Source: Mogibacterium kristiansenii (GTDB lineage: Bacteria; Bacillota; Clostridia; Peptostreptococcales; Anaerovoracaceae). Taken from it: a DNA stretch of 24,000 nucleotides. Under the pieces are notes generated by a model. It was not told the DNA's origin, did not search any database, and saw only the letters and a program-made list of their open reading frames with translations. Shown here piece by piece: positions 3,418-15,118 of this stretch; position 1 is the stretch's first letter, and the number at the start of each line of letters is the position of its first letter. Both the position numbers and the translations under genes were made by a program. Where the stretch lies: positions 24,750-48,749 of the forward strand of contig NZ_VUNA01000013.1 of NCBI RefSeq assembly GCF_009695905.1, given 5' to 3'.

Positions 3418-3431
3418 CGCATGCTCTGACC

Positions 3432-3562
3432 ATCTTCTTTCATCCAGACTATACTGTCGGCTTCGGAATCTCACCGAATCATGCGGTTTTCCGGAACTCC
3501 GTCCCTCGGAAAACGCTCGCGGGCTGTACCGCCGGTGGGGAATTGCGCCCCGCCCCGAAGAT
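3432..3562 (-). promoter_or_regulatory. FMN riboswitch (RFN element) aptamer
   Basis: The minus strand reads TCTTCGGGGCGGGGCGCAATTCCCCACCGGCGGTACAGCCCGCGAGC...GATTCGGTGAGATTCCGAAGCCGACAGTATAGTCTGGATGAAAGAAGA. These are the conserved RFN blocks (GGGGCGGGG.AATTCCCCACCGGCGGTA..AGCCCGCGAGC; GGTGAGATTCCGAAGCCGACAGTATAGTCTGGATG). It sits directly upstream of ribD. Confidence 0.92.
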
Positions 3563-3579
3563 TTTAAATTGCCATTGTT

Positions 3580-4771: not shown

Positions 4772-4802
4772 AAAAATCCCGGTCATCGGGCCGGGATTTT
4801 TG
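4772..4802 (-). terminator. intrinsic terminator after the lipoprotein gene
   Basis: The minus strand reads AAAAATCCCGG-cccgatga-CCGGGATTTTTGTTTTG, immediately downstream of the stop at 4815. Confidence 0.8.
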
Positions 4803-4814
4803 CTTATTCACCAT

Positions 4815-5183
4815 TTAATCTTCCATCAGCTTGCCTGTCGGGCTCATGCTGGAAGGGGTATACTTGCCGTTCTCATCCGCCTTGAACAACACGTGCAGGC
4901 GAGAATTCTCATCCGGGCCCGGGAAGTCCACCACCAGGTAACCTTCTCCCCAGCTTTCAGTGGAGTCCTCGTCCTCCACATACTTCACGCCCAGAAACTG
5001 TTCCATTTCTTCCGGCGTCAGTTCATACCACTTGGTTTCCCGCAGCTTGTCGTACTGCTCCTTGGTCACGGTTGCGTTTGGATCGATGCCGTCGTCTTTT
5101 TTCTTATCTTCTCCACCCCCGCAGGCGGCCACTGAGAAGCACATCATCAAAGACATCACCACCGTCATTATTTTCTTTTTCAT
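4815..5183 (-). CDS. small lipoprotein, unknown function
   Basis: Signal peptide with a lipobox: MKKKIMTVVMSLMMCFSVAAC-GGGEDKKK. I prefer the start at 5183 (GGTGAGAG upstream) over the track start at 5195. A terminator follows. No domain recognised in the mature part. Confidence 0.75.
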   Translation of the reverse strand: MKKKIMTVVMSLMMCFSVAACGGGEDKKKDDGIDPNATVTKEQYDKLRETKWYELTPEEMEQFLGVKYVEDEDSTESWGEGYLVVDFPGPDENSRLHVLFKADENGKYTPSSMSPTGKLMED

Positions 5184-5361
5184 ATCTCTCACCATCTCTC
5201 GAAATGATCCTTTCGAATCTCGGGTGCGATAACGGTTTTGTGTAAAACATACGAAGTACTTCTTGCTTGTGAGAGTATTTTACCAAGTTCACGCCGGCGG
5301 AACATCACCCGAAAGGGTATTTTTCGGGGTCTTCCCTTTTTCGCGCCCAAGGGTTCCGTAT

Positions 5362-5399: not shown

Positions 5400-6209
5400 T
5401 TACCTCGTCATTTCCTCAATTTTCGCCGGATAAACGGCAATGGATTCCTTGGACTTCGGCATCCTCCGAACCATCCTGCGAGACAGTGTGCAGCTGTTAT
5501 GATAGTAAGGATAGTATTTCAGGTATATTCGAGGAATCCGAAAGAATCCTTCCGGTCGCTGATTGGATACGCCAATTGCATCCCCCAGCCATTCTCCCGG
5601 TTTGGCCTTTTCCCCATATCCCAAAAGAAGCGACAGCGGATCTTCCTCCACTTCATAGTAATATCTTTCCGTCGAAAAATCTGCATTATAAACACGTGCC
5701 ACAACCGCAGTCTCTCCCAGTTCATAGTAGATTCCCTTGGTATAGTTTATCGTGTAGCGGTATTCTTCGGTTTCCCTTTGGAACTGTCCGCGGAACGGAT
5801 GATTGATGTCAATTCCGAATTCGTTGGGAACATCTATACCTGCTCTAACGTCTGCAATATAAGCTCCGATATATTCCCGCACACATTCTTCCGCTTCTTT
5901 GAACAAACCGGATACATCCTGATATGTCTCGCAAATTAAATCAAACACATCTTCGGGATGACCGAATTCCACCGTTTGCTCGTATAGAACCCGAATCAAA
6001 TCGTTGGGATAAGATTCTTCCACACTGCAGGAATCTCCAATCCAAAGAATACGATTCCCTTTCCACTCATCGCTCAACAAGCTGTGCAGCGCATTTCGCA
6101 CCTCGTTCTCTCTGGACATACACTGATGGAATCTAGCGCCGTAATTAAATGCAAAAGGCTCAATATATTCTCGTTTGTCCACATTGACCCATTTAAAATC
6201 CTCCCCCAT
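5400..6209 (-). CDS. hypothetical protein, no recognisable domain
   Basis: 269-aa ORF flanked by its own candidate promoter and a strong terminator. An in-frame TAG two codons upstream fixes the ATG at 6209. The Shine-Dalgarno is weak (GGTAGTG). The composition is acidic and aromatic-rich, with no TM segment or signal peptide. It is called coding on length and context only. Confidence 0.65.
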   Translation of the reverse strand: MGEDFKWVNVDKREYIEPFAFNYGARFHQCMSRENEVRNALHSLLSDEWKGNRILWIGDSCSVEESYPNDLIRVLYEQTVEFGHPEDVFDLICETYQDVSGLFKEAEECVREYIGAYIADVRAGIDVPNEFGIDINHPFRGQFQRETEEYRYTINYTKGIYYELGETAVVARVYNADFSTERYYYEVEEDPLSLLLGYGEKAKPGEWLGDAIGVSNQRPEGFFRIPRIYLKYYPYYHNSCTLSRRMVRRMPKSKESIAVYPAKIEEMTR

Positions 6210-6277
6210 TGCACACTACCGCAACGGAATTCGTACAAACTTAAAGGATTCCGTCGCGACTCCTTTCTTGTGGTTAC

Positions 6278-6306
6278 ACCATACCTTGAATGCATCGGGT
6301 TGTCAA
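6278..6306 (-). promoter_or_regulatory. candidate sigma-70-type promoter of the 269-aa gene
   Basis: Minus strand: TTGACA (6301-6306), 17-nt spacer, TATGGT (6278-6283). The -35 is embedded in an 8-bp inverted repeat, TCAAGGCT-N16-AGCCTTGA (6303-6334). Confidence 0.5.
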
Positions 6307-6368
6307 GGCTCTAGACGGTCGGCGAAAGCCTTGATTTGCGACCGGCAAAGGAAGTGGCACTGATTCGC

Positions 6369-6621
6369 CCGGGACGTGGTGCCTCACCGCTCGCAAACCC
6401 TTTGTTCTTCGTCGCCAAGCACCACGTCTCCCGAGCCAAAGGAGTCTTCAGCGCCCCGGGCGTGGTGCCTCACTCCCCGCTAGCCCTTGTTCCTTCGTCG
6501 ACAGGCACCACGCCGACAAGGCCAATGGGTCTTCCGCCGCACTGGGCGTGGTGCCTCACCGCCCGCTAGCCCTTATTCCTTCGTCGACAGGCACCACGCC
6601 GACAAGCACACCCGCCCTGCC
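6369..6621. repeat. three tandem 86-bp units, each a long GC-rich hairpin/inverted repeat
   Basis: CGTGGTGCCT starts at 6375, 6461 and 6547, an exact 86-bp period. Copies 2 and 3 are 60/63 identical over 6458-6520 versus 6544-6606. The arms are GGCGTGGTGCCT / AGGCACCACGCC around a conserved ~32-nt core. Copy 1 has GACGTGGTGC / GCACCACGTC, a compensatory pair of changes. Confidence 0.9.
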
Positions 6622-6623
6622 AC

Positions 6624-6663
6624 AAAAAAACCTCCGACGCCGCCTCATCCGCGGCCGTCGAAG
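6624..6663 (-). terminator. intrinsic terminator after the XRE-family gene
   Basis: The minus strand reads CTTCGACGGCCGC-ggatgag-GCGGCGTCGGAG (12 bp with one bulge) followed by GTTTTTTTGTGG, about 30 nt after the TAG stop at 6692-6694. Confidence 0.85.
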
Positions 6664-6691
6664 ATTTCCTCTCATTCTATTTTTTCTACAT

Positions 6692-7459
6692 CTACTTGCT
6701 TTTCTTCCACACAATGGAATTGCCCGCATTCGCATCCACAATTCGATTTACATCGCTGAACCACATATACGTCAAAATGGCGCTTCCGCCCTTCTTCCCG
6801 AAAACCCGGTCTAAATTGCTCATCTTCAGGATCAGCTCCACGGTATCCGCCCCCTCTTTGGAGGATCCCACCGAAACAACCGTCCGATCCGGCACCTCCA
6901 GCGTTATGCAGGTGGCCGCTTTGCTGTTCATCAATTGATTGTACTCTTCCCCCTCGAACACGTAAATTCCCTTGCTCGGGGCTTTGGTCCCGTTCACCCC
7001 GTAGTAGATTCCCGTATTGTCGTTTGGAAATTTATAAAAAGCCATCTTCCGACCCCGATCGATTTTCACATCGTCGAGATGAATTGATTTCACCTCCACC
7101 ACCTCCGCACCGCAGTCTTCGGCGCTCAGCCGAACGTAGGTATGGTTCAGAGCGAACAACCCCAGTCCCACCAACAGAAGCAGCCCCACCGTGAGCGCCG
7201 CCATCTTATAGTTCTGGAAACGCCCCTTGCGCTGTTCCTTCGTAATCTCCTGCACCATCTTGCCATCTCCTTTCACCAGAGCGTCCAAGGAAATATCAAA
7301 AGAATCGCTGATAAAAACCAGCATCTCCAGGTCCGGATAGCTTTTCCCGTTCTCCCAATTGGAAATGGTCTGCCGTGTGACACTGCACCGCTCCGCCAGC
7401 CCTTCCTGGGTCAGGTTATTTGCTTTTCTCAGCTCCGTAATTCTTCTTCCAAGTTCCAT
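6692..7459 (-). CDS. membrane-tethered XRE-family helix-turn-helix transcriptional regulator
   Basis: N-terminal Cro/C1-type HTH (LGRRITELRKANNLTQEGLAERCSVTRQTISNWENGKSYPDLEMLVFISDSF). One TM helix follows (MAALTVGLLLLVGLGLFAL), then a ~140-aa extracytoplasmic domain I do not recognise. The track start at 7468 is a GTG abutting the SD. The ATG at 7459 lies 9 nt after GGGAGAGGG. Confidence 0.85.
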   Translation of the reverse strand: MELGRRITELRKANNLTQEGLAERCSVTRQTISNWENGKSYPDLEMLVFISDSFDISLDALVKGDGKMVQEITKEQRKGRFQNYKMAALTVGLLLLVGLGLFALNHTYVRLSAEDCGAEVVEVKSIHLDDVKIDRGRKMAFYKFPNDNTGIYYGVNGTKAPSKGIYVFEGEEYNQLMNSKAATCITLEVPDRTVVSVGSSKEGADTVELILKMSNLDRVFGKKGGSAILTYMWFSDVNRIVDANAGNSIVWKKSK

Positions 7460-7965: not shown

Positions 7966-7990
7966 GCTGTACCTGCCACTCAAAATATGA

Positions 7991-8359
7991 TTAAATATGC
8001 TCACATCGAGATAATGTAAGATGTTTGGTTTTCACCATCTCTGCAATTGTTTTATTGCTGTAATCAGTACGAATATTATTAATCTTATGATGAAGTTTTT
8101 GTACCTTAAGCCTTTGTTTTTGTATATTTACTCTTTGAGTGGCTCCTCCTTTCTTTAAGTTTTCATACTTTCGAGAAAGACTCCTCTGTTCTCGAATGAT
8201 TTGTTTTTTATACTTACGAAGCCCATCCAGCCTACAAATCATAAGTGTAATAACGCCTATTAGTTGGAGTTCGGTTTGCCTCCTTTGCAGCTCGCATCTG
8301 TTATGTTCAATAACCCGAAACTTTAAATATGCTTTATAAGTTTCTTCCAATATTTTCAA
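7991..8359 (-). pseudogene. tnpB: remnant of an IS200/IS605-family TnpB (OrfB) gene, internal fragment only
   Basis: LSRKYENLKKGGATQRVNIQKQRLKVQKLHHKINNIRTDYSNKTIAEMVKTK matches the conserved TnpB block (LSRK...R-hydrophobic-K-hydrophobic-A-KLH-x-KI-x-N-x-R-x-D-F/Y-x-H/N-K-x-S/T...V). The downstream RuvC (IEDLN) and zinc-finger parts are missing, as is the N-terminal third. The sequence is very low in GC. Confidence 0.55.
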
Positions 8360-8693
8360 GTTCTTTTATAGAATCCTTGTTTTTTGCAAGTTCATCACTG
8401 GCTGTTGCACAATATGATTTTTGAAAAATTACATCCCATGAAAGATATTTCGCCATGCAGCCGAACTGTTTGTCAATTAACTCATACTGGATGCTGTCCA
8501 CCGGGGCTCCTCCCACAACGATTGTTCCAATTTTTTTATTTTTCAGCTTCAAACCGCGGCAGTAACATTTATCGATGATAAGTTTCAACTGTGCAGACAT
8601 TCCCCACCAATATACCGGAGTAGCAAAAAGAATCACATCTGCAGCGGCAATTTTATCAATTGTTGGATTTGTATCATCCTGGTCAACCTCCAA
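8334..8693 (-). pseudogene. 5'-truncated flavodoxin-like / NAD(P)H-dependent FMN reductase family gene
   Basis: The 119-aa ORF aligns only with the C-terminal two thirds of this family (ADVILFATPVYWWGMSAQLKLIIDK..., GTIVVGGAP). The N-terminal MKxLxIxGSPR nucleotide-binding strand is absent. The 'start' is a TTG directly abutting AAGGAG, with an in-frame TGA just upstream. Confidence 0.6.
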
Positions 8694-8788
8694 CTCCTTA
8701 TTTCATGAAATATTATACCTTTTTTCGATTATCCCGGCAATAGCCCTAAAACCCCGTAACCACGGGCTTTCCCCGTAATTTCGAGACA

Positions 8789-8828: not shown

Positions 8829-8904
<76 letters not shown>

Positions 8905-8915
8905 ATATTAAGAAT

Positions 8916-9004
8916 TGGTGCCGGAAACCGGGGTCGAACCGGTACGAGAATCACTTCTCACGGGATTTTAAGTCCCGGGCGTCTGCCAATTCCGCCATTC
9001 CGGC
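8916..9004 (-). tRNA. tRNA-Leu (anticodon TAA)
   Basis: Reverse complement: GCCGGAATGGCGGAATTGGCAGACGCCCGGGACTTAAAATCCCGTGAGAAGTGATTCTCGTACCGGTTCGACCCCGGTTTCCGGCACCA. The acceptor stem is GCCGGAA/TTCCGGC and the anticodon loop is CTTAAAA. It has a long variable arm, and CCA is encoded. Confidence 0.93.
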
Positions 9005-9016
9005 GTAAAAAATAAA

Positions 9017-9091
9017 TGGCTCCGAGGGTGGGGCTCGAACCCACAACCTACCGGTTAACAGCCGGTTGCTCTGCCATTGAGCTACCTCGGA
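9017..9091 (-). tRNA. tRNA-Asn (anticodon GTT)
   Basis: Reverse complement: TCCGAGGTAGCTCAATGGCAGAGCAACCGGCTGTTAACCGGTAGGTTGTGGGTTCGAGCCCCACCCTCGGAGCCA. It folds as a clean cloverleaf with anticodon loop CTGTTAA. CCA is encoded. Confidence 0.93.
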
Positions 9092-14404: not shown

Positions 14405-14577
14405 CCCCTCTTTTAAATACTTCACGGAATACTCATATTGGATGGCGAAAGTGTTTTTATGAGGGGATATCCGGAGGTTAGACGGATTGAACAAAAACGC
14501 GTCACACCTTGTTTTATACTTCTAACTGTGGTATTCTATGTAGAGATTATACAGGCAAAACGGGAGGATTCACCACC

Positions 14578-15003
14578 ATGGAAATACGGAAATCATCCGA
14601 AGATTATCTGGAAACGATGCTGATGCTCAAGGAACAGAACGGATATGTTCGCTCCATTGACATTGCAAAACATCTGAATGTGACAAAGCCGAGCGTTTCC
14701 TACGCTACCAAACGGCTTCGGGAGAACGGCTATATTGAAATGAACAACGATGGGCTGATTACGCTGACCGATTCCGGGATGGCCATCGCTCATAAGATCC
14801 TGGACCGCCACAAGATGCTTTCCCAGTTTCTGATTATGCTGGGCGTGGACAAGGATGTTGCCGACGAGGATGCTTGCAACATCGAGCACGATATCAGCAA
14901 CGAGTCCTTCGAAGCGATTTGCAATCACGTGAATAATTTCATGTCCGAATGCCCGAGAATCAATTCCTTCGCACCGGATTGCGAAGGCCGGACACGGGAA
15001 TAG
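14578..15003 (+). CDS. DtxR/MntR-family metal-dependent transcriptional repressor
   Basis: 141 aa. MEIRKSSEDYLETMLMLKEQNGYVRSIDIAKHLNVTKPSVSYATKRLRENGYI is the DtxR-type winged HTH. The dimerisation/metal domain follows (DRHKMLSQFLI...DACNIEHDIS). GGGAGGA lies 9 nt upstream of the ATG at 14578. It is the only plus-strand gene I accept. Confidence 0.88.
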   Translation: MEIRKSSEDYLETMLMLKEQNGYVRSIDIAKHLNVTKPSVSYATKRLRENGYIEMNNDGLITLTDSGMAIAHKILDRHKMLSQFLIMLGVDKDVADEDACNIEHDISNESFEAICNHVNNFMSECPRINSFAPDCEGRTRE

Positions 15004-15073
15004 CACAACGGTACTTCAAGCCTTTGCGGGATTTCTTGCACCAAGTCCCGGGCCCGCCGCCAAGCGAAAACAT

Positions 15074-15118
15074 GAAAGACCTGTATCGTCTGGCTTTAGC
15101 TGACGATACAGGTCTTTT
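15074..15118. terminator. bidirectional terminator between the convergent regulator gene and fhs
   Basis: GAAAGACCTGTATCGTC-tggctttagct-GACGATACAGGTCTTTTC forms a 17-bp stem. It is T-rich on the plus side (TTTTCTTAT) and moderately so on the minus side. Confidence 0.8.

What the first reader, a model, noticed from the sequence alone, without database searches (positions are those of the whole stretch)
6369..6621. Three exact-period 86-bp tandem hairpin modules with a compensatory stem change, lying between a terminator and a promoter
Seen in sequence:
- CGTGGTGCCT begins at 6375, 6461 and 6547, an exact 86-bp period.
- Copies 2 and 3 are 60/63 identical over their cores (6458-6520 versus 6544-6606). 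Copy 1 is more diverged (27/36 in the central part).
- Each unit is an inverted repeat, GGCGTGGTGCCT ... AGGCACCACGCC (12 bp). It encloses a conserved ~32-nt segment: CACCGCCCGCTAGCCCTTATTCCTTCGTCGAC on +, which is purine-rich GTCGACGAAGGAATAAGGGCTAGCGGGCGGTG on -.
- In copy 1 the arms read GACGTGGTGC ... GCACCACGTC. The G-to-A change in the left arm is matched by C-to-T in the right arm, so complementarity is kept by a double substitution.
- 86 is not a multiple of 3, and the track ORFs cross the copies in different frames. It is therefore not a protein repeat.
- The hairpins lack T-tracts, so they are not terminators.
- The array is GC-rich relative to its flanks. It sits between the XRE gene terminator (6624-6663) and the orphan gene promoter (6278-6306), so it is not obviously part of either mRNA.

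Inference, three alternatives:
1. Tandem structured sRNA or cis-RNA modules.
2. REP/BIME-like extragenic palindromes.
3. Phased binding sites (86 bp is about 8 helical turns) for a regulator such as the adjacent membrane-tethered XRE protein.

I do not recognise it as any riboswitch or ncRNA class I know.
Basis: partly seen in the sequence, partly recalled or inferred. Interest (0 to 1): 0.7.

Follow-up and report, generated by a model that had tools for sequence, protein, structure and literature searches.

The report
Dispersed 86-bp tandem hairpin repeat family
The three 86-bp hairpin modules are real, but they are one small, strain-variable array of a previously undescribed repeat family scattered over many intergenic sites in one genus of gut Clostridia. 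They are not a regulatory device belonging to the neighbouring genes.

Summary
In detail: 2.8 copies of an 86-bp unit lie at 6368-6605. Each unit is a 56-nt hairpin (10-12-bp stem, about 32-36-nt conserved loop) plus a 30-nt linker. The array sits between the XRE gene's terminator and the next gene's promoter-like site.

It is not locus-specific. An exact-pattern scan of 185,579 species genomes found the same unit in four assemblies. Three are congeneric with the window. The fourth gave one short contig whose flank resembles one of their loci. There were 34 hit stretches at about 14 independent sites, with 1-13 units each. Spacing is 86 bp in 84% of cases.

Four arm types share one loop core, and the stem covaries between three of them (6 of 10 pairs with double changes). 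Arrays lie downstream of unrelated housekeeping genes, usually just past an intrinsic terminator. The purine-rich strand runs with the upstream gene at 13 of 14 sites.

At the window's own locus, related strains carry one unit, three or more units, or deletions that remove it. Sister species carry five and at least seven.

An IS110-family insertion sequence inserts specifically into the loop core, as IS621 does into REP.

Verdict: a new REP/BOX/MIRU-like dispersed repeat family. The XRE-operator idea is refuted. An RNA role is unproven.

The parts
6366..6621 (-). The array: partial linker, then three 86-bp units (hairpin plus linker) in direct tandem orientation. The purine-rich-loop strand ('G-strand') is the window's minus strand, the sense strand of both flanking genes.
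   Evidence: It is type A of the family defined.
6545..6600 (-). Hairpin unit 3 (first in minus-strand reading order). Arms 6589-6600/6545-6556, 12 bp. Loop GTCGACGAAGGAATAAGGGCTAGCGGGCGGTG.
   Evidence: I4.: -29.9 kcal/mol on the minus strand and -23.2 on the plus strand.
6459..6514 (-). Hairpin unit 2, 53/56 identical to unit 3. The linkers on either side of it are only 15/30 alike.
   Evidence: (I2).
6373..6428 (-). Hairpin unit 1, the ancestral resident unit of this locus. It corresponds to the single unit of strains L003, L005, L007 and L010-L012 and is identical in L001 and L002. Arms GACGTGGTGC/GCACCACGTC.
   Evidence: (I9).
6429..6458 (-). 30-nt linker between units 2 and 1. It is locus-typical and also present in L001, with relatives in L036.
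6515..6544 (-). 30-nt linker between units 3 and 2, a different variant (15/30 identical to the other linker).
6601..6621 (-). Partial, degenerate linker joining the terminator T-run to unit 3. The 'head' motif that other strains carry here is missing.
6624..6663 (-). Intrinsic terminator of the XRE-type gene. It is context, not part of the repeat. Arrays of this family typically start 19-114 nt after such a T-run.
6278..6306 (-). Promoter-like site (TTGACA-17-TATGGT) of the downstream 269-aa gene. It is context, conserved in L003-type strains and in sister species L023.
15003..15047 (+). Degenerate solo remnant (3' half) of a type-B unit. It lies on the plus strand just after the stop of ORF 14509-15003 and before a terminator.
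   Evidence: nhmmer E=3.6e-4...CAAGCCTTTGCGGGATTTCTTGCACCAAGTC.

Best explanation
The three modules are one array of a dispersed, non-coding repeat superfamily confined, as far as the scans show, to one genus-level clade of human-gut Clostridia. NCBI labels for that clade are 'uncultured Clostridia bacterium', 'Mogibacterium sp. 18NH' and 'Clostridium sp. W2P44.032'.

SHOWN
- The unit is a 56-57-nt hairpin (10-bp Watson-Crick core stem, conserved purine-rich loop core CG(A/G)AG(G/A)AAYAAGG(G/C)YTNGCGGG) plus a roughly 30-nt faster-evolving linker.
- Units are always in direct tandem orientation, with an 86-bp period.
- Arrays of 1-13 units sit in intergenic DNA, usually just downstream of the intrinsic terminator of unrelated, mostly housekeeping genes. 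The purine-rich strand is co-oriented with that upstream gene.
- Copy number and even presence differ between strains at the same site.
- At least four arm types keep the stem through compensatory changes.
- An IS110-family element inserts into the loop core.

INFERRED
- Arrays grow and shrink by slipped-strand or unequal recombination between units. Alleles are also exchanged: the window's units 2 and 3 with their linkers are not a simple duplication of resident unit 1.
- The hairpin (stem plus loop sequence) is kept because it is recognised as a single-stranded or cruciform structure by some trans-acting factor that spreads or maintains the element, as REP sequences are by their transposase-like proteins.
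- At this locus the array has no specific tie to the XRE gene or the downstream gene. It occupies the dead zone between a terminator and a promoter and behaves as a hypervariable minisatellite-like allele.
For: Dispersal
- 34 hit stretches in 4 of 185,579 species genomes carry the exact pattern, almost all with 86-bp spacing.
- In L013-L046 there are 168 units in 39 arrays. Spacing is 86 bp in 84% and 85-88 bp in 95%.
- Three of the four genomes are 91-97% identical to each other in the flanks, and one of them is 95% identical to the window.
- No predicted gene overlaps any array.

Hairpin under constraint
- Identity between different loci is 0.82 for hairpins and 0.43 for linkers (0.29 when shuffled).
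- The 10-bp stem is 96.1% paired across 54 A, B and C units. Six of 10 pairs have double changes (82 cells). 0 of 500 shuffles reach this, and slid controls are 21-52% paired.
- RNAalifold independently returns only this stem.

Position and orientation
- The upstream gene is co-oriented with the G-strand in 22 of 25 arrays, about 13 of 14 independent sites. The window remnant at 15003 is also co-oriented.
- A terminator-like hairpin plus T-run lies between the upstream stop codon and the first unit at 12-13 of 15 sites.

No gene association
- Flanking genes include a GltD-like oxidoreductase, GuaA, an ABC ATPase, EF-G, SfsA, pyruvate kinase, IlvC, a tRNA synthetase, ApbE and tRNA genes. There is no other XRE.

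Locus polymorphism
- Alleles seen: one unit plus head motif; at least 3 units with different units 2 and 3 (L001); the window's 3 units without head; and two kinds of deletion. The orthologous site has 5 units in L023 and at least 7 in L036.

IS target
- A 1,681-bp element encodes a 382-aa protein with DEDD_Tnp_IS110 and Transposase_20 domains.
- It is inserted after ..AAYAAG in A, B and C loops in 19 of 27 metagenome copies. IS110-family elements insert into REP elements in the same way (PMC11208160).

Not a known RNA, plasmid or phage sequence
-.
Against: - No trans-acting enzyme (RAYT or other) was identified, because whole genomes could not be scanned. Mobility is therefore inferred from distribution, not seen.
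- Most arrays sit at orthologous sites in three species, so recent transposition is not demonstrated. Linkers are largely locus-specific, so homogenisation between loci is not evident either.
- The strong cross-locus conservation of the loop and stem could therefore reflect a host function.
- The strand bias has no proven cause. It tracks both the upstream gene (13/14) and GC skew (13/14), and the exceptions conflict.
- The window strain's complete genome was not available. Dispersal in that strain rests on one degenerate remnant in the window and on conspecific contigs that carry type C and D arrays 1.5 kb away.
Confidence: 0.7

Rival explanations
1. Structured RNA modules. The purine-rich (G) strand is transcribed by read-through from the upstream gene. 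The tandem hairpins act in the 3' region, for example as exonuclease barriers or as Shine-Dalgarno-like (GAAGGAA/GGAGGAA, AAGGG) decoys for ribosomes or an RNA-binding protein.
For: - The G-strand is co-oriented with the upstream gene at 13 of 14 independent sites, and also at the window remnant, which lies before its terminator.
- The stem covaries and the loop sequence is conserved.
- The minus-strand RNA of the window array folds with z = -3.2, against -1.55 for the plus strand.
Against: - At 12-13 of 15 sites the array starts after a canonical terminator hairpin plus T-run, and no promoter was seen.
- The GGA motif is absent from 41 of 102 type-A loops.
- Units are dispensable and variable in number between strains with identical neighbouring proteins.
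- Wobble pairs show no consistent strand signature.
- There is no Rfam match.
Confidence: 0.15
2. Double-stranded DNA binding arrays. The palindromic arms and the loop core are sites for a nucleoid-associated protein or topoisomerase, as BIME-2 arrays bind gyrase. They would be placed downstream of heavily transcribed genes to manage supercoiling or domain structure.
For: - Arrays lie 3' of genes such as EF-G, pyruvate kinase, GuaA, IlvC, a tRNA synthetase and tRNA genes, about half of them between convergent genes.
- The compensatory arm changes are all Watson-Crick to Watson-Crick. That is also what symmetric half-sites for a dimer would show.
Against: - The 86-bp period is 8.2 helical turns, so it is not helically phased. 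Type B uses 87-88 bp.
- Four different arm types coexist in one genome, which would need four specificities.
- No candidate protein was found.
- The link to expression level is anecdotal.
Confidence: 0.1
3. Antisense-transcription traps. Read in the opposite direction, each unit exposes a roughly 32-nt C-rich, G-poor loop (C 14, G 4 in the window unit). The arrays could load Rho and stop transcription running back into the upstream gene.
For: The idea would explain the orientation relative to the upstream gene and the position at gene 3' ends. Loop composition is read directly from the sequence.
Against: - It is purely inferential.
- A rut site does not need a conserved sequence or a covarying stem.
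- One locus has B and C units in the opposite orientation.
- Rho dependence in this clade is unknown.
Confidence: 0.04
4. Phased operator sites for the adjacent membrane-tethered XRE-family regulator.
For: Only adjacency in the window and the palindromic arms.
Against: - Arrays at about 13 other sites have no HTH neighbour among the genes scanned.
- Strains encoding the identical 255-aa XRE protein have one unit or a deletion that removes it.
- The array lies downstream of the XRE gene's own terminator.
Confidence: 0.01
5. A CRISPR- or TIGR-like guide array, with the hairpin as repeat and the 30-nt linker as spacer.
For: The 56 + 30 nt layout is superficially like repeat plus spacer. Linkers differ between arrays.
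Against: - Linkers within an array are 76% identical and share a family consensus.
- There are at least 14 arrays per genome-clade.
- No cas- or tas-like gene appears among the flanking genes scanned.
- The repeat is longer than any CRISPR repeat.
Confidence: 0.01

Closest known systems
REP / BIME elements of Enterobacteria and Pseudomonas (including BIME-2 arrays)
   Same: - Extragenic, hairpin-forming and high in copy number, sitting at gene 3' ends and between convergent genes.
- Can form local clusters of variable size.
- Specific insertion targets of IS110-family elements, as IS621 and ISPpu9/10 are in REP (PMC11208160, PMC12288879). Shown here.
   Different: - REPs are 20-40-nt imperfect palindromes with tiny loops. 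They usually occur as inverted pairs or in alternating orientation.
- Here the hairpin is 56 nt with a conserved 36-nt loop, all units are direct repeats at a fixed 86-bp period, and there is a strand bias.
- There is no sequence similarity.
- RAYT association is untested.
BOX elements of Streptococcus pneumoniae (boxA-boxBn-boxC)
   Same: - Modular intergenic repeat with an internal module that is tandemly amplified a variable number of times.
- Predicted stable secondary structure.
- Dispersed over many loci.
- A recurring 'head' motif (GGAAACGGnnnnGCCGTTTCC...TAAGTGCGGCCGG) precedes arrays at 3 or more non-orthologous sites here, and linker-like tails follow them.
   Different: - The head is optional; the window lacks it.
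- The module is 86 bp rather than 45 bp.
- Several covarying arm types exist.
- There is no sequence relationship, and the phylum-level lineage differs.
- This comparison rests on my own knowledge of BOX, not on a tool test.
MIRU-type minisatellites (VNTR loci) of Mycobacterium tuberculosis
   Same: - 40-100-bp units in direct tandem arrays at many intergenic loci.
- Oriented with the neighbouring genes.
- Copy number polymorphic between strains. At the window locus: 0, 1 and 3 or more units between strains, and 5 and 7 or more in sister species.
   Different: - MIRUs are not defined by a conserved hairpin with covarying arms.
- Some MIRUs carry short ORFs overlapping the flanking genes.
- Here all three frames of the G-strand are closed in many units, and arrays lie beyond terminators.
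CRISPR arrays
   Same: Regularly spaced, partly palindromic repeats with roughly 30-nt intervening segments.
   Different: - The intervening segments are related to each other.
- There are many arrays per genome.
- No cas genes are seen.
- The repeat is too long.

Membership tests
REP/BIME | Extragenic location | tested here: met
   No predicted gene overlaps any of about 38 arrays. The window array lies between a terminator and a promoter-like site.
REP/BIME | Short (20-40 nt) imperfect palindrome with a small loop | tested here: not met
   A 10-bp core stem encloses a conserved 36-37-nt loop. The unit is 56-57 nt.
REP/BIME | Many dispersed copies per genome | tested here: met
   9-13 hit stretches per genome for type A alone in three congeneric assemblies, and 168 units in the stretches held.
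REP/BIME | Units in inverted or alternating orientation (REPIN or BIME mosaic) | tested here: not met
   All units within an array share one orientation. Only one locus has arrays of different types facing each other.
REP/BIME | Cognate RAYT (Y1 transposase-like) gene in the genome | not testable with these tools
   Whole genomes of the clade could not be fetched.
BOX-like modular repeat | Conserved terminal modules flanking a tandemly amplified internal module | tested here: inconclusive
   A head motif is present at 3 or more non-orthologous loci and linker-like tails at several. Many arrays, including the window's, lack the head.
MIRU/VNTR minisatellite | Direct tandem units of 40-100 bp at multiple intergenic loci, with copy number varying between strains | tested here: met
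CRISPR | Unique spacers between repeats | tested here: not met
   Linkers are 76% identical within arrays and 43% between loci, against 29% when shuffled.
Any Rfam RNA family | Covariance-model match | tested here: not met
   No relevant hit at the gathering threshold in the window or in four further loci. None at E<=10 in 6150-6750.
Intrinsic terminator | GC-rich hairpin followed by a T-run | tested here: not met
   No unit is followed by a T-tract. The real terminator is the separate hairpin at 6624-6663.
Operator array of the adjacent XRE regulator | Co-occurrence of the sites with the regulator gene | tested here: not met
   No HTH gene flanks the other sites scanned. The identical XRE protein occurs with one unit or none.

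The most novel reading that the evidence does not exclude
The hairpin modules are not junk repeats. They would be a new class of strand-oriented, structured nucleic-acid element under purifying selection (10-bp covarying stem, invariant purine-rich loop core, at least four arm specificities). Acting as RNA or as single-stranded DNA, the element would work behind terminators of highly expressed genes, for example as a binding scaffold or sponge for a protein or for the ribosome. Alternatively it is mobilised by an unrecognised hairpin-specific enzyme. In either case an IS1111-type, bridge-RNA-guided recombinase has evolved to use the loop as its landing pad.
Probability: 0.2. Interest if true: 0.65.

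Novelty: new variant of a known kind. Interest (0 to 1): 0.4.

Why it matters
- The finding turns an apparently unique 'device' into a member of an undescribed family of bacterial interspersed repeats. The host is a poorly known, largely uncultured gut Clostridia genus.
- Repeats of this kind break short-read assemblies: many of the contigs examined end inside arrays or inside the IS.
- They also generate spurious gene calls. The 157-aa and 164-aa 'proteins' called inside arrays in L003 and L006 are examples.
- They provide hypervariable markers for strain typing.
- The family comes with a matched IS110-family element of IS1111-like build that targets its loop. That is a natural target/recombinase pair outside Proteobacteria, and it could be useful for studying how bridge-RNA recombinases choose repeated 'safe' targets.
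- The cause of the strand bias, and whatever keeps the hairpin conserved, remain open and testable questions.

Tried and rejected
- **Rfam:** gathering and permissive thresholds on the window, and gathering on four other loci, gave only the FMN riboswitch and tRNAs plus chance hits.
- **Plasmid and phage collections:** blastn in distant mode found no match.
- **Viral contigs:** only one contig (L047) carries the units, and it shows the same arrays.
- **Strand assignment from wobble pairs:** type A outer pairs favour the C-rich strand (A.C 37 versus G.T 5; 51 versus 18; 73 versus 13). Type C pair 10 favours the G-rich strand (T.G in 17 of 19). I therefore rejected this as a strand indicator.
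- **Extra conserved helices in the loop or linker:** RNAalifold finds none common to the family. Inner pairings are subfamily-specific, and linker mini-hairpins are not in register.
- **Separating transcription from replication as the cause of the orientation bias:** both predictors score 13 of 14 and their exceptions conflict.
- **Literature:** full-text searches for an 86-bp tandem hairpin repeat or a Clostridia interspersed repeat family returned nothing relevant.
- **Exact-protein look-up with the GTG-start XRE ORF:** this failed. The ATG-start form worked.
- **My first loop-core regular expression:** it was too strict and found almost nothing, so I replaced it with arm-based patterns.
Full report
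**1. What is in the window**

Window 6366-6621 holds 2.8 copies of an 86-bp unit (Tandem Repeats Finder: period 86, score 309, 83% matches). Each unit is a 56-nt hairpin followed by a 30-nt linker.

- In copies 2 and 3 the arms GGCGTGGTGCCT/AGGCACCACGCC are 12/12 complementary around a 32-nt segment. Copy 1 has GACGTGGTGC/GCACCACGTC.
- The arm 12-mer is over-represented: 8 matches against 1.66 expected, and 0 of 100 shuffles reach 8.
- The array has 64-68% GC against 43-52% in the flanks.

Both neighbours are on the minus strand:

- Upstream is an HTH_3/XRE-type 255-aa protein (6692-7459). Its terminator at 6663-6624 folds at -27.8 kcal/mol and is followed by U7.
- Downstream is a 269-aa protein with no Pfam match (5400-6209), preceded by TTGACA-17-TATGGT at 6306-6278.

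I call the minus strand of the units the 'G-strand'. Its loop reads GTCGACGAAGGAATAAGGGCTAGCGGGCGGTG.

Rfam has nothing for it, either at gathering thresholds or at E<=10.

**2. The same locus in other strains**

The exact XRE protein is on record in 416 blocks of the assembly collection. Ten long contigs show the orthologous intergenic region.

- Six carry the terminator, then a 'head' (GTGGGGAGCAGAAGGAAACGGTTCCGCCGTTTCCAACACCTGTGTAAGTGCGGCCGG...), then a single unit (AACGTGGTGCTT...AAGCACCACGT), then the same promoter.
- Four have lost the unit, the promoter and the 5' part of the downstream gene. These deletions start within 2 nt of each other just after the head hairpin.
- A Logan contig encoding the identical downstream protein has at least 3 units. 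Its unit 1 and the adjacent linker match the window, but its units 2 and 3 differ.
- The sister species carry 5 units (L023) and at least 7 units (L036) at this site.
- In the window, units 2 and 3 are 53/56 alike but their linkers only 15/30, and the head is missing. The window allele is therefore not a simple in-place duplication of the resident unit.

The locus behaves as a hypervariable minisatellite. The array is dispensable for strains that keep the identical XRE protein.

**3. Dispersal**

I scanned one genome for each of 185,579 species with a relaxed pattern (TGGTGC-N7-CGAAG-N5-AGGG-N15-GCACCA, about 0.3 chance hits expected by my own estimate). It returned 34 stretches from only four assemblies:

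- two 'uncultured Clostridia bacterium' MAGs from Hadza samples;
- 'Mogibacterium sp. 18NH';
- 'Clostridium sp. W2P44.032'.

The first three are 91-97% identical to each other in shared flanks, and one of them (L023) is 95% identical to the window in conserved genes. They are congeneric with the window. The fourth is a single 2.3-kb contig whose flank is 87% identical to one of their loci.

- In the stretches held there are 168 units in 39 arrays of 1-13 units. Spacing is 86 bp in 84% and 85-88 bp in 95% of neighbouring pairs.
- After collapsing orthologous sites there are about 14 independent loci.
- A profile search of the window finds a fourth, degenerate copy at 15003-15047 on the plus strand.
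- Conspecific contigs (L003, L006, L011) carry long arrays of other subtypes only 1.5 kb from the XRE gene, between the tRNA genes and the Lin0512-family gene. The window has a flavodoxin/TnpB-fragment segment there instead.
- Plasmid and phage collections have no match, and IMG/VR has one contig.

**4. Anatomy of the family**

Four arm types were seen, all with the same loop core CG(A/G)AG(G/A)AAYAAGG(G/C)YTNGCGGG and the same roughly 86-bp period:

| Type | Arms |
|---|---|
| A | ..CGTGGTGC/GCACCACG.. (the window's type) |
| B | GACTTGGTGCA/TGCACCAAGTC |
| C | TGTTGGCG(TG)/(CA)CGCCAACA |
| D | GGTTCGCGC/GCGCGAACC |

- On an alignment of 54 A, B and C units, the 10-bp stem is paired in 96.1% of cells. 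Six of 10 pairs change on both sides (82 cells). No shuffle of 500 reaches the observed covariation, and slid controls pair at 21-52%.
- RNAalifold on its own predicts exactly this stem and nothing else.
- The caveat is that these changes separate three lineages of copies, so the number of independent events is small.
- Between different loci hairpins are 82% identical (77% at positions not fixed by my search pattern). Linkers are only 43% identical, against 29% for shuffled linkers.
- Mixed arrays and a hybrid unit (B-type 5' arm with A-type 3' arm) occur in L047, which shows recombination between units.
- The outer stem pairs (2-55, 11-46, 12-45) are loose. Their mismatches do not point consistently to one strand, so the sequence alone cannot say whether the relevant form is RNA, single-stranded DNA or duplex.

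**5. Where arrays sit**

I used a self-trained codon-usage gene finder, which reproduced the database gene calls on the window.

- No array overlaps a gene.
- The gene on the 5' side, in G-strand orientation, is co-oriented in 22 of 25 arrays. That is about 13 of 14 independent sites, a two-sided binomial p of about 0.002 by my own calculation. The window remnant at 15003 is also co-oriented.
- The gene on the 3' side is co-directional or convergent about equally often.
- At 12-13 of 15 sites a terminator-like hairpin plus T-run lies between the upstream stop codon and the first unit, 19-114 nt before it.
- GC skew of the flanks is positive in the G-strand orientation at 13 of 14 sites. The bias could therefore equally reflect replication direction. 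The exceptions conflict: L021/L028 and the window remnant follow the gene, while L029/L041/L044 follow the skew.
- Upstream genes are unrelated and mostly housekeeping: a GltD-like oxidoreductase, GMP synthase, an ABC ATPase, EF-G, SfsA, pyruvate kinase, ketol-acid reductoisomerase, a class II tRNA synthetase, ApbE and tRNA genes. No HTH regulator appears among the 20 flanking genes scanned.
- A head motif with the hairpin GGAAACGG-N4-GCCGTTTCC recurs between terminator and first unit at three or more non-orthologous sites. Degenerate linker-like repeats often trail the arrays.

**6. An insertion sequence that targets the loop**

Several contigs end, inside a unit loop, in the same foreign sequence. 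A metagenome scan with 24 nt of it returned 27 contigs.

- The complete element (L055:1785-3465, 1,681 bp) encodes a 382-aa protein with DEDD_Tnp_IS110 and Transposase_20 domains.
- It has a 108-nt left and a 424-nt right non-coding end, and 12-bp subterminal inverted repeats (11/12 identical).
- An AG dinucleotide is present on both sides of the insertion.
- Its ends would create TTGACA-17-GATAAT on circularisation (read directly from the sequence).
- A short left end, a long right end and long subterminal repeats are the stated hallmarks of the IS1111 group of the IS110 family. Insertion into REP elements is a known habit of the family (PMC11208160; ISPpu9 in PMC12288879).
- In 19 of 27 copies the left flank is a recognisable A, B or C unit cut after ..AAYAAG. 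In three further copies (L050, L053, L066) the right flank is a unit's 3' half.
- The right end contains AAAGCCTTTGT, identical to the C-rich strand of the type-C target across the core. This may be part of a guide, but I did not establish that.

The window's three units are unoccupied targets.

**7. Interpretation**

*Shown.* The modules belong to a genus-restricted, dispersed superfamily of direct tandem hairpin repeats in intergenic DNA. The stem is kept by compensatory change, the loop core is conserved, and the linker evolves faster. Orientation is biased, copy number varies between strains, and a dedicated IS110-family element parasitises the loop.

*Inferred.*
- Arrays change size by slippage or unequal recombination, and alleles are exchanged between arrays or strains.
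- The hairpin is conserved because a trans-acting factor recognises it. This could be for the element's own spread, as with REP and RAYT, or for some host use.
- At this locus the array has no specific connection to the XRE gene or to the downstream gene.

*Rivals.* I rank an RNA role (3' modules read through from the upstream gene) as the main rival. It explains the orientation, but it is weakened by the terminators in front of most arrays and by the dispensability of the units. A duplex-DNA protein-binding role (BIME-2-like) and an antisense Rho-trap role are possible but have no direct support. The XRE-operator and CRISPR-like readings are contradicted.

**8. Comparison with known elements, and novelty**

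The element works like REP/BIME, BOX and MIRU elements. It is not a member of any of them.

- It fails the REP criteria of a short palindrome and inverted arrangement.
- It has no sequence similarity to anything in Rfam, plasmids or phages.
- I found no description of it in the literature searched.

I class it as a new variant of a known kind (bacterial interspersed repeats). It is of moderate interest in itself and of some added interest because of the matched IS1111-type element. As a 'novel regulatory device', the original finding does not stand.

Noticed in passing
L055:1785-3465 (also L050, L051, L052, L053, L066; ends in L018, L019, L033, L034, L037, L042): A 1,681-bp IS110-family element with IS1111-like build. 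It encodes a 382-aa DEDD recombinase and has a 108-nt left and a 424-nt right non-coding end, 12-bp subterminal inverted repeats and a duplicated AG core. Circularisation would create a TTGACA-17-GATAAT junction promoter. It inserts into the loop core of A, B and C units after ..AAYAAG. Its right end contains AAAGCCTTTGT, which matches the target's C-rich strand and may be a bridge-RNA guide.
   Followed up: partly
L003:4409-5300, L006:3969-4900, L011:375-950 (same species as the window); window 7975-8786: Conspecific strains carry 7-11 type-C units, alternating two sub-variants in a 172-bp higher-order period, plus type-D units (arms GGTTCGCGC/GCGCGAACC). These lie between the tRNA cluster and the Lin0512-family gene. 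The window and L009 have a flavodoxin-like fragment and an OrfB_IS605 (TnpB) fragment there instead.
   Followed up: partly
L003:4527-5000; L006:4087-4560 and 4775-5269: Database gene calls of 157 and 164 aa with no Pfam match lie entirely inside the repeat arrays. They are almost certainly spurious ORFs created by the repeats.
   Followed up: partly
L004, L006 and L008 (junction ...CCGTTTCCAACA|TCGGAATTCGG) and L009 (...CCAACACC|GACTGGGAG), versus L003:6875-7391: Two independent deletion alleles start within 2 nt of each other, right after the head hairpin. They remove the unit, the promoter and the 5' part of the 269/279-aa gene. Shared left breakpoints suggest the head hairpin is a breakage or recombination hotspot.
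   Followed up: partly
window 15003-15047 (+): A degenerate 3' half of a type-B unit lies directly after the stop of ORF 14509-15003 and before a bidirectional-looking terminator at about 15078-15115. It is oriented with its upstream gene and against the local GC skew.
   Followed up: partly
L047 (IMGVR_UViG_3300029360_000167), 1-2115: A contig classed as viral carries type A, B and C arrays side by side. It includes a hybrid unit with a type-B 5' arm and a type-A 3' arm, which is evidence of recombination between units. Whether the contig is really viral was not examined.
   Followed up: no
L016:824-2094 and L032:1236-1890: One locus has type-B and type-C units in the opposite orientation, directly abutting a type-A array in the usual orientation. 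This is the only case seen of arrays facing each other.
   Followed up: no
window 3428-3566 (-) and 8832-9091 (-): An FMN riboswitch (111 bits) precedes the riboflavin operon (ribD, lumazine-binding protein, ribBA). There is also a cluster of three tRNA genes.
   Followed up: no
window 5400-6209 (-) and orthologues: The downstream 269-aa protein has no Pfam match. It exists as 269- and 279-aa forms and as 5'-truncated, promoterless remnants (224, 178 and 110 aa) in different strains. A small lipoprotein-like ORF and an Endonuclease_NS_2-domain protein follow it. It may be a dispensable or counter-selected gene.
   Followed up: no
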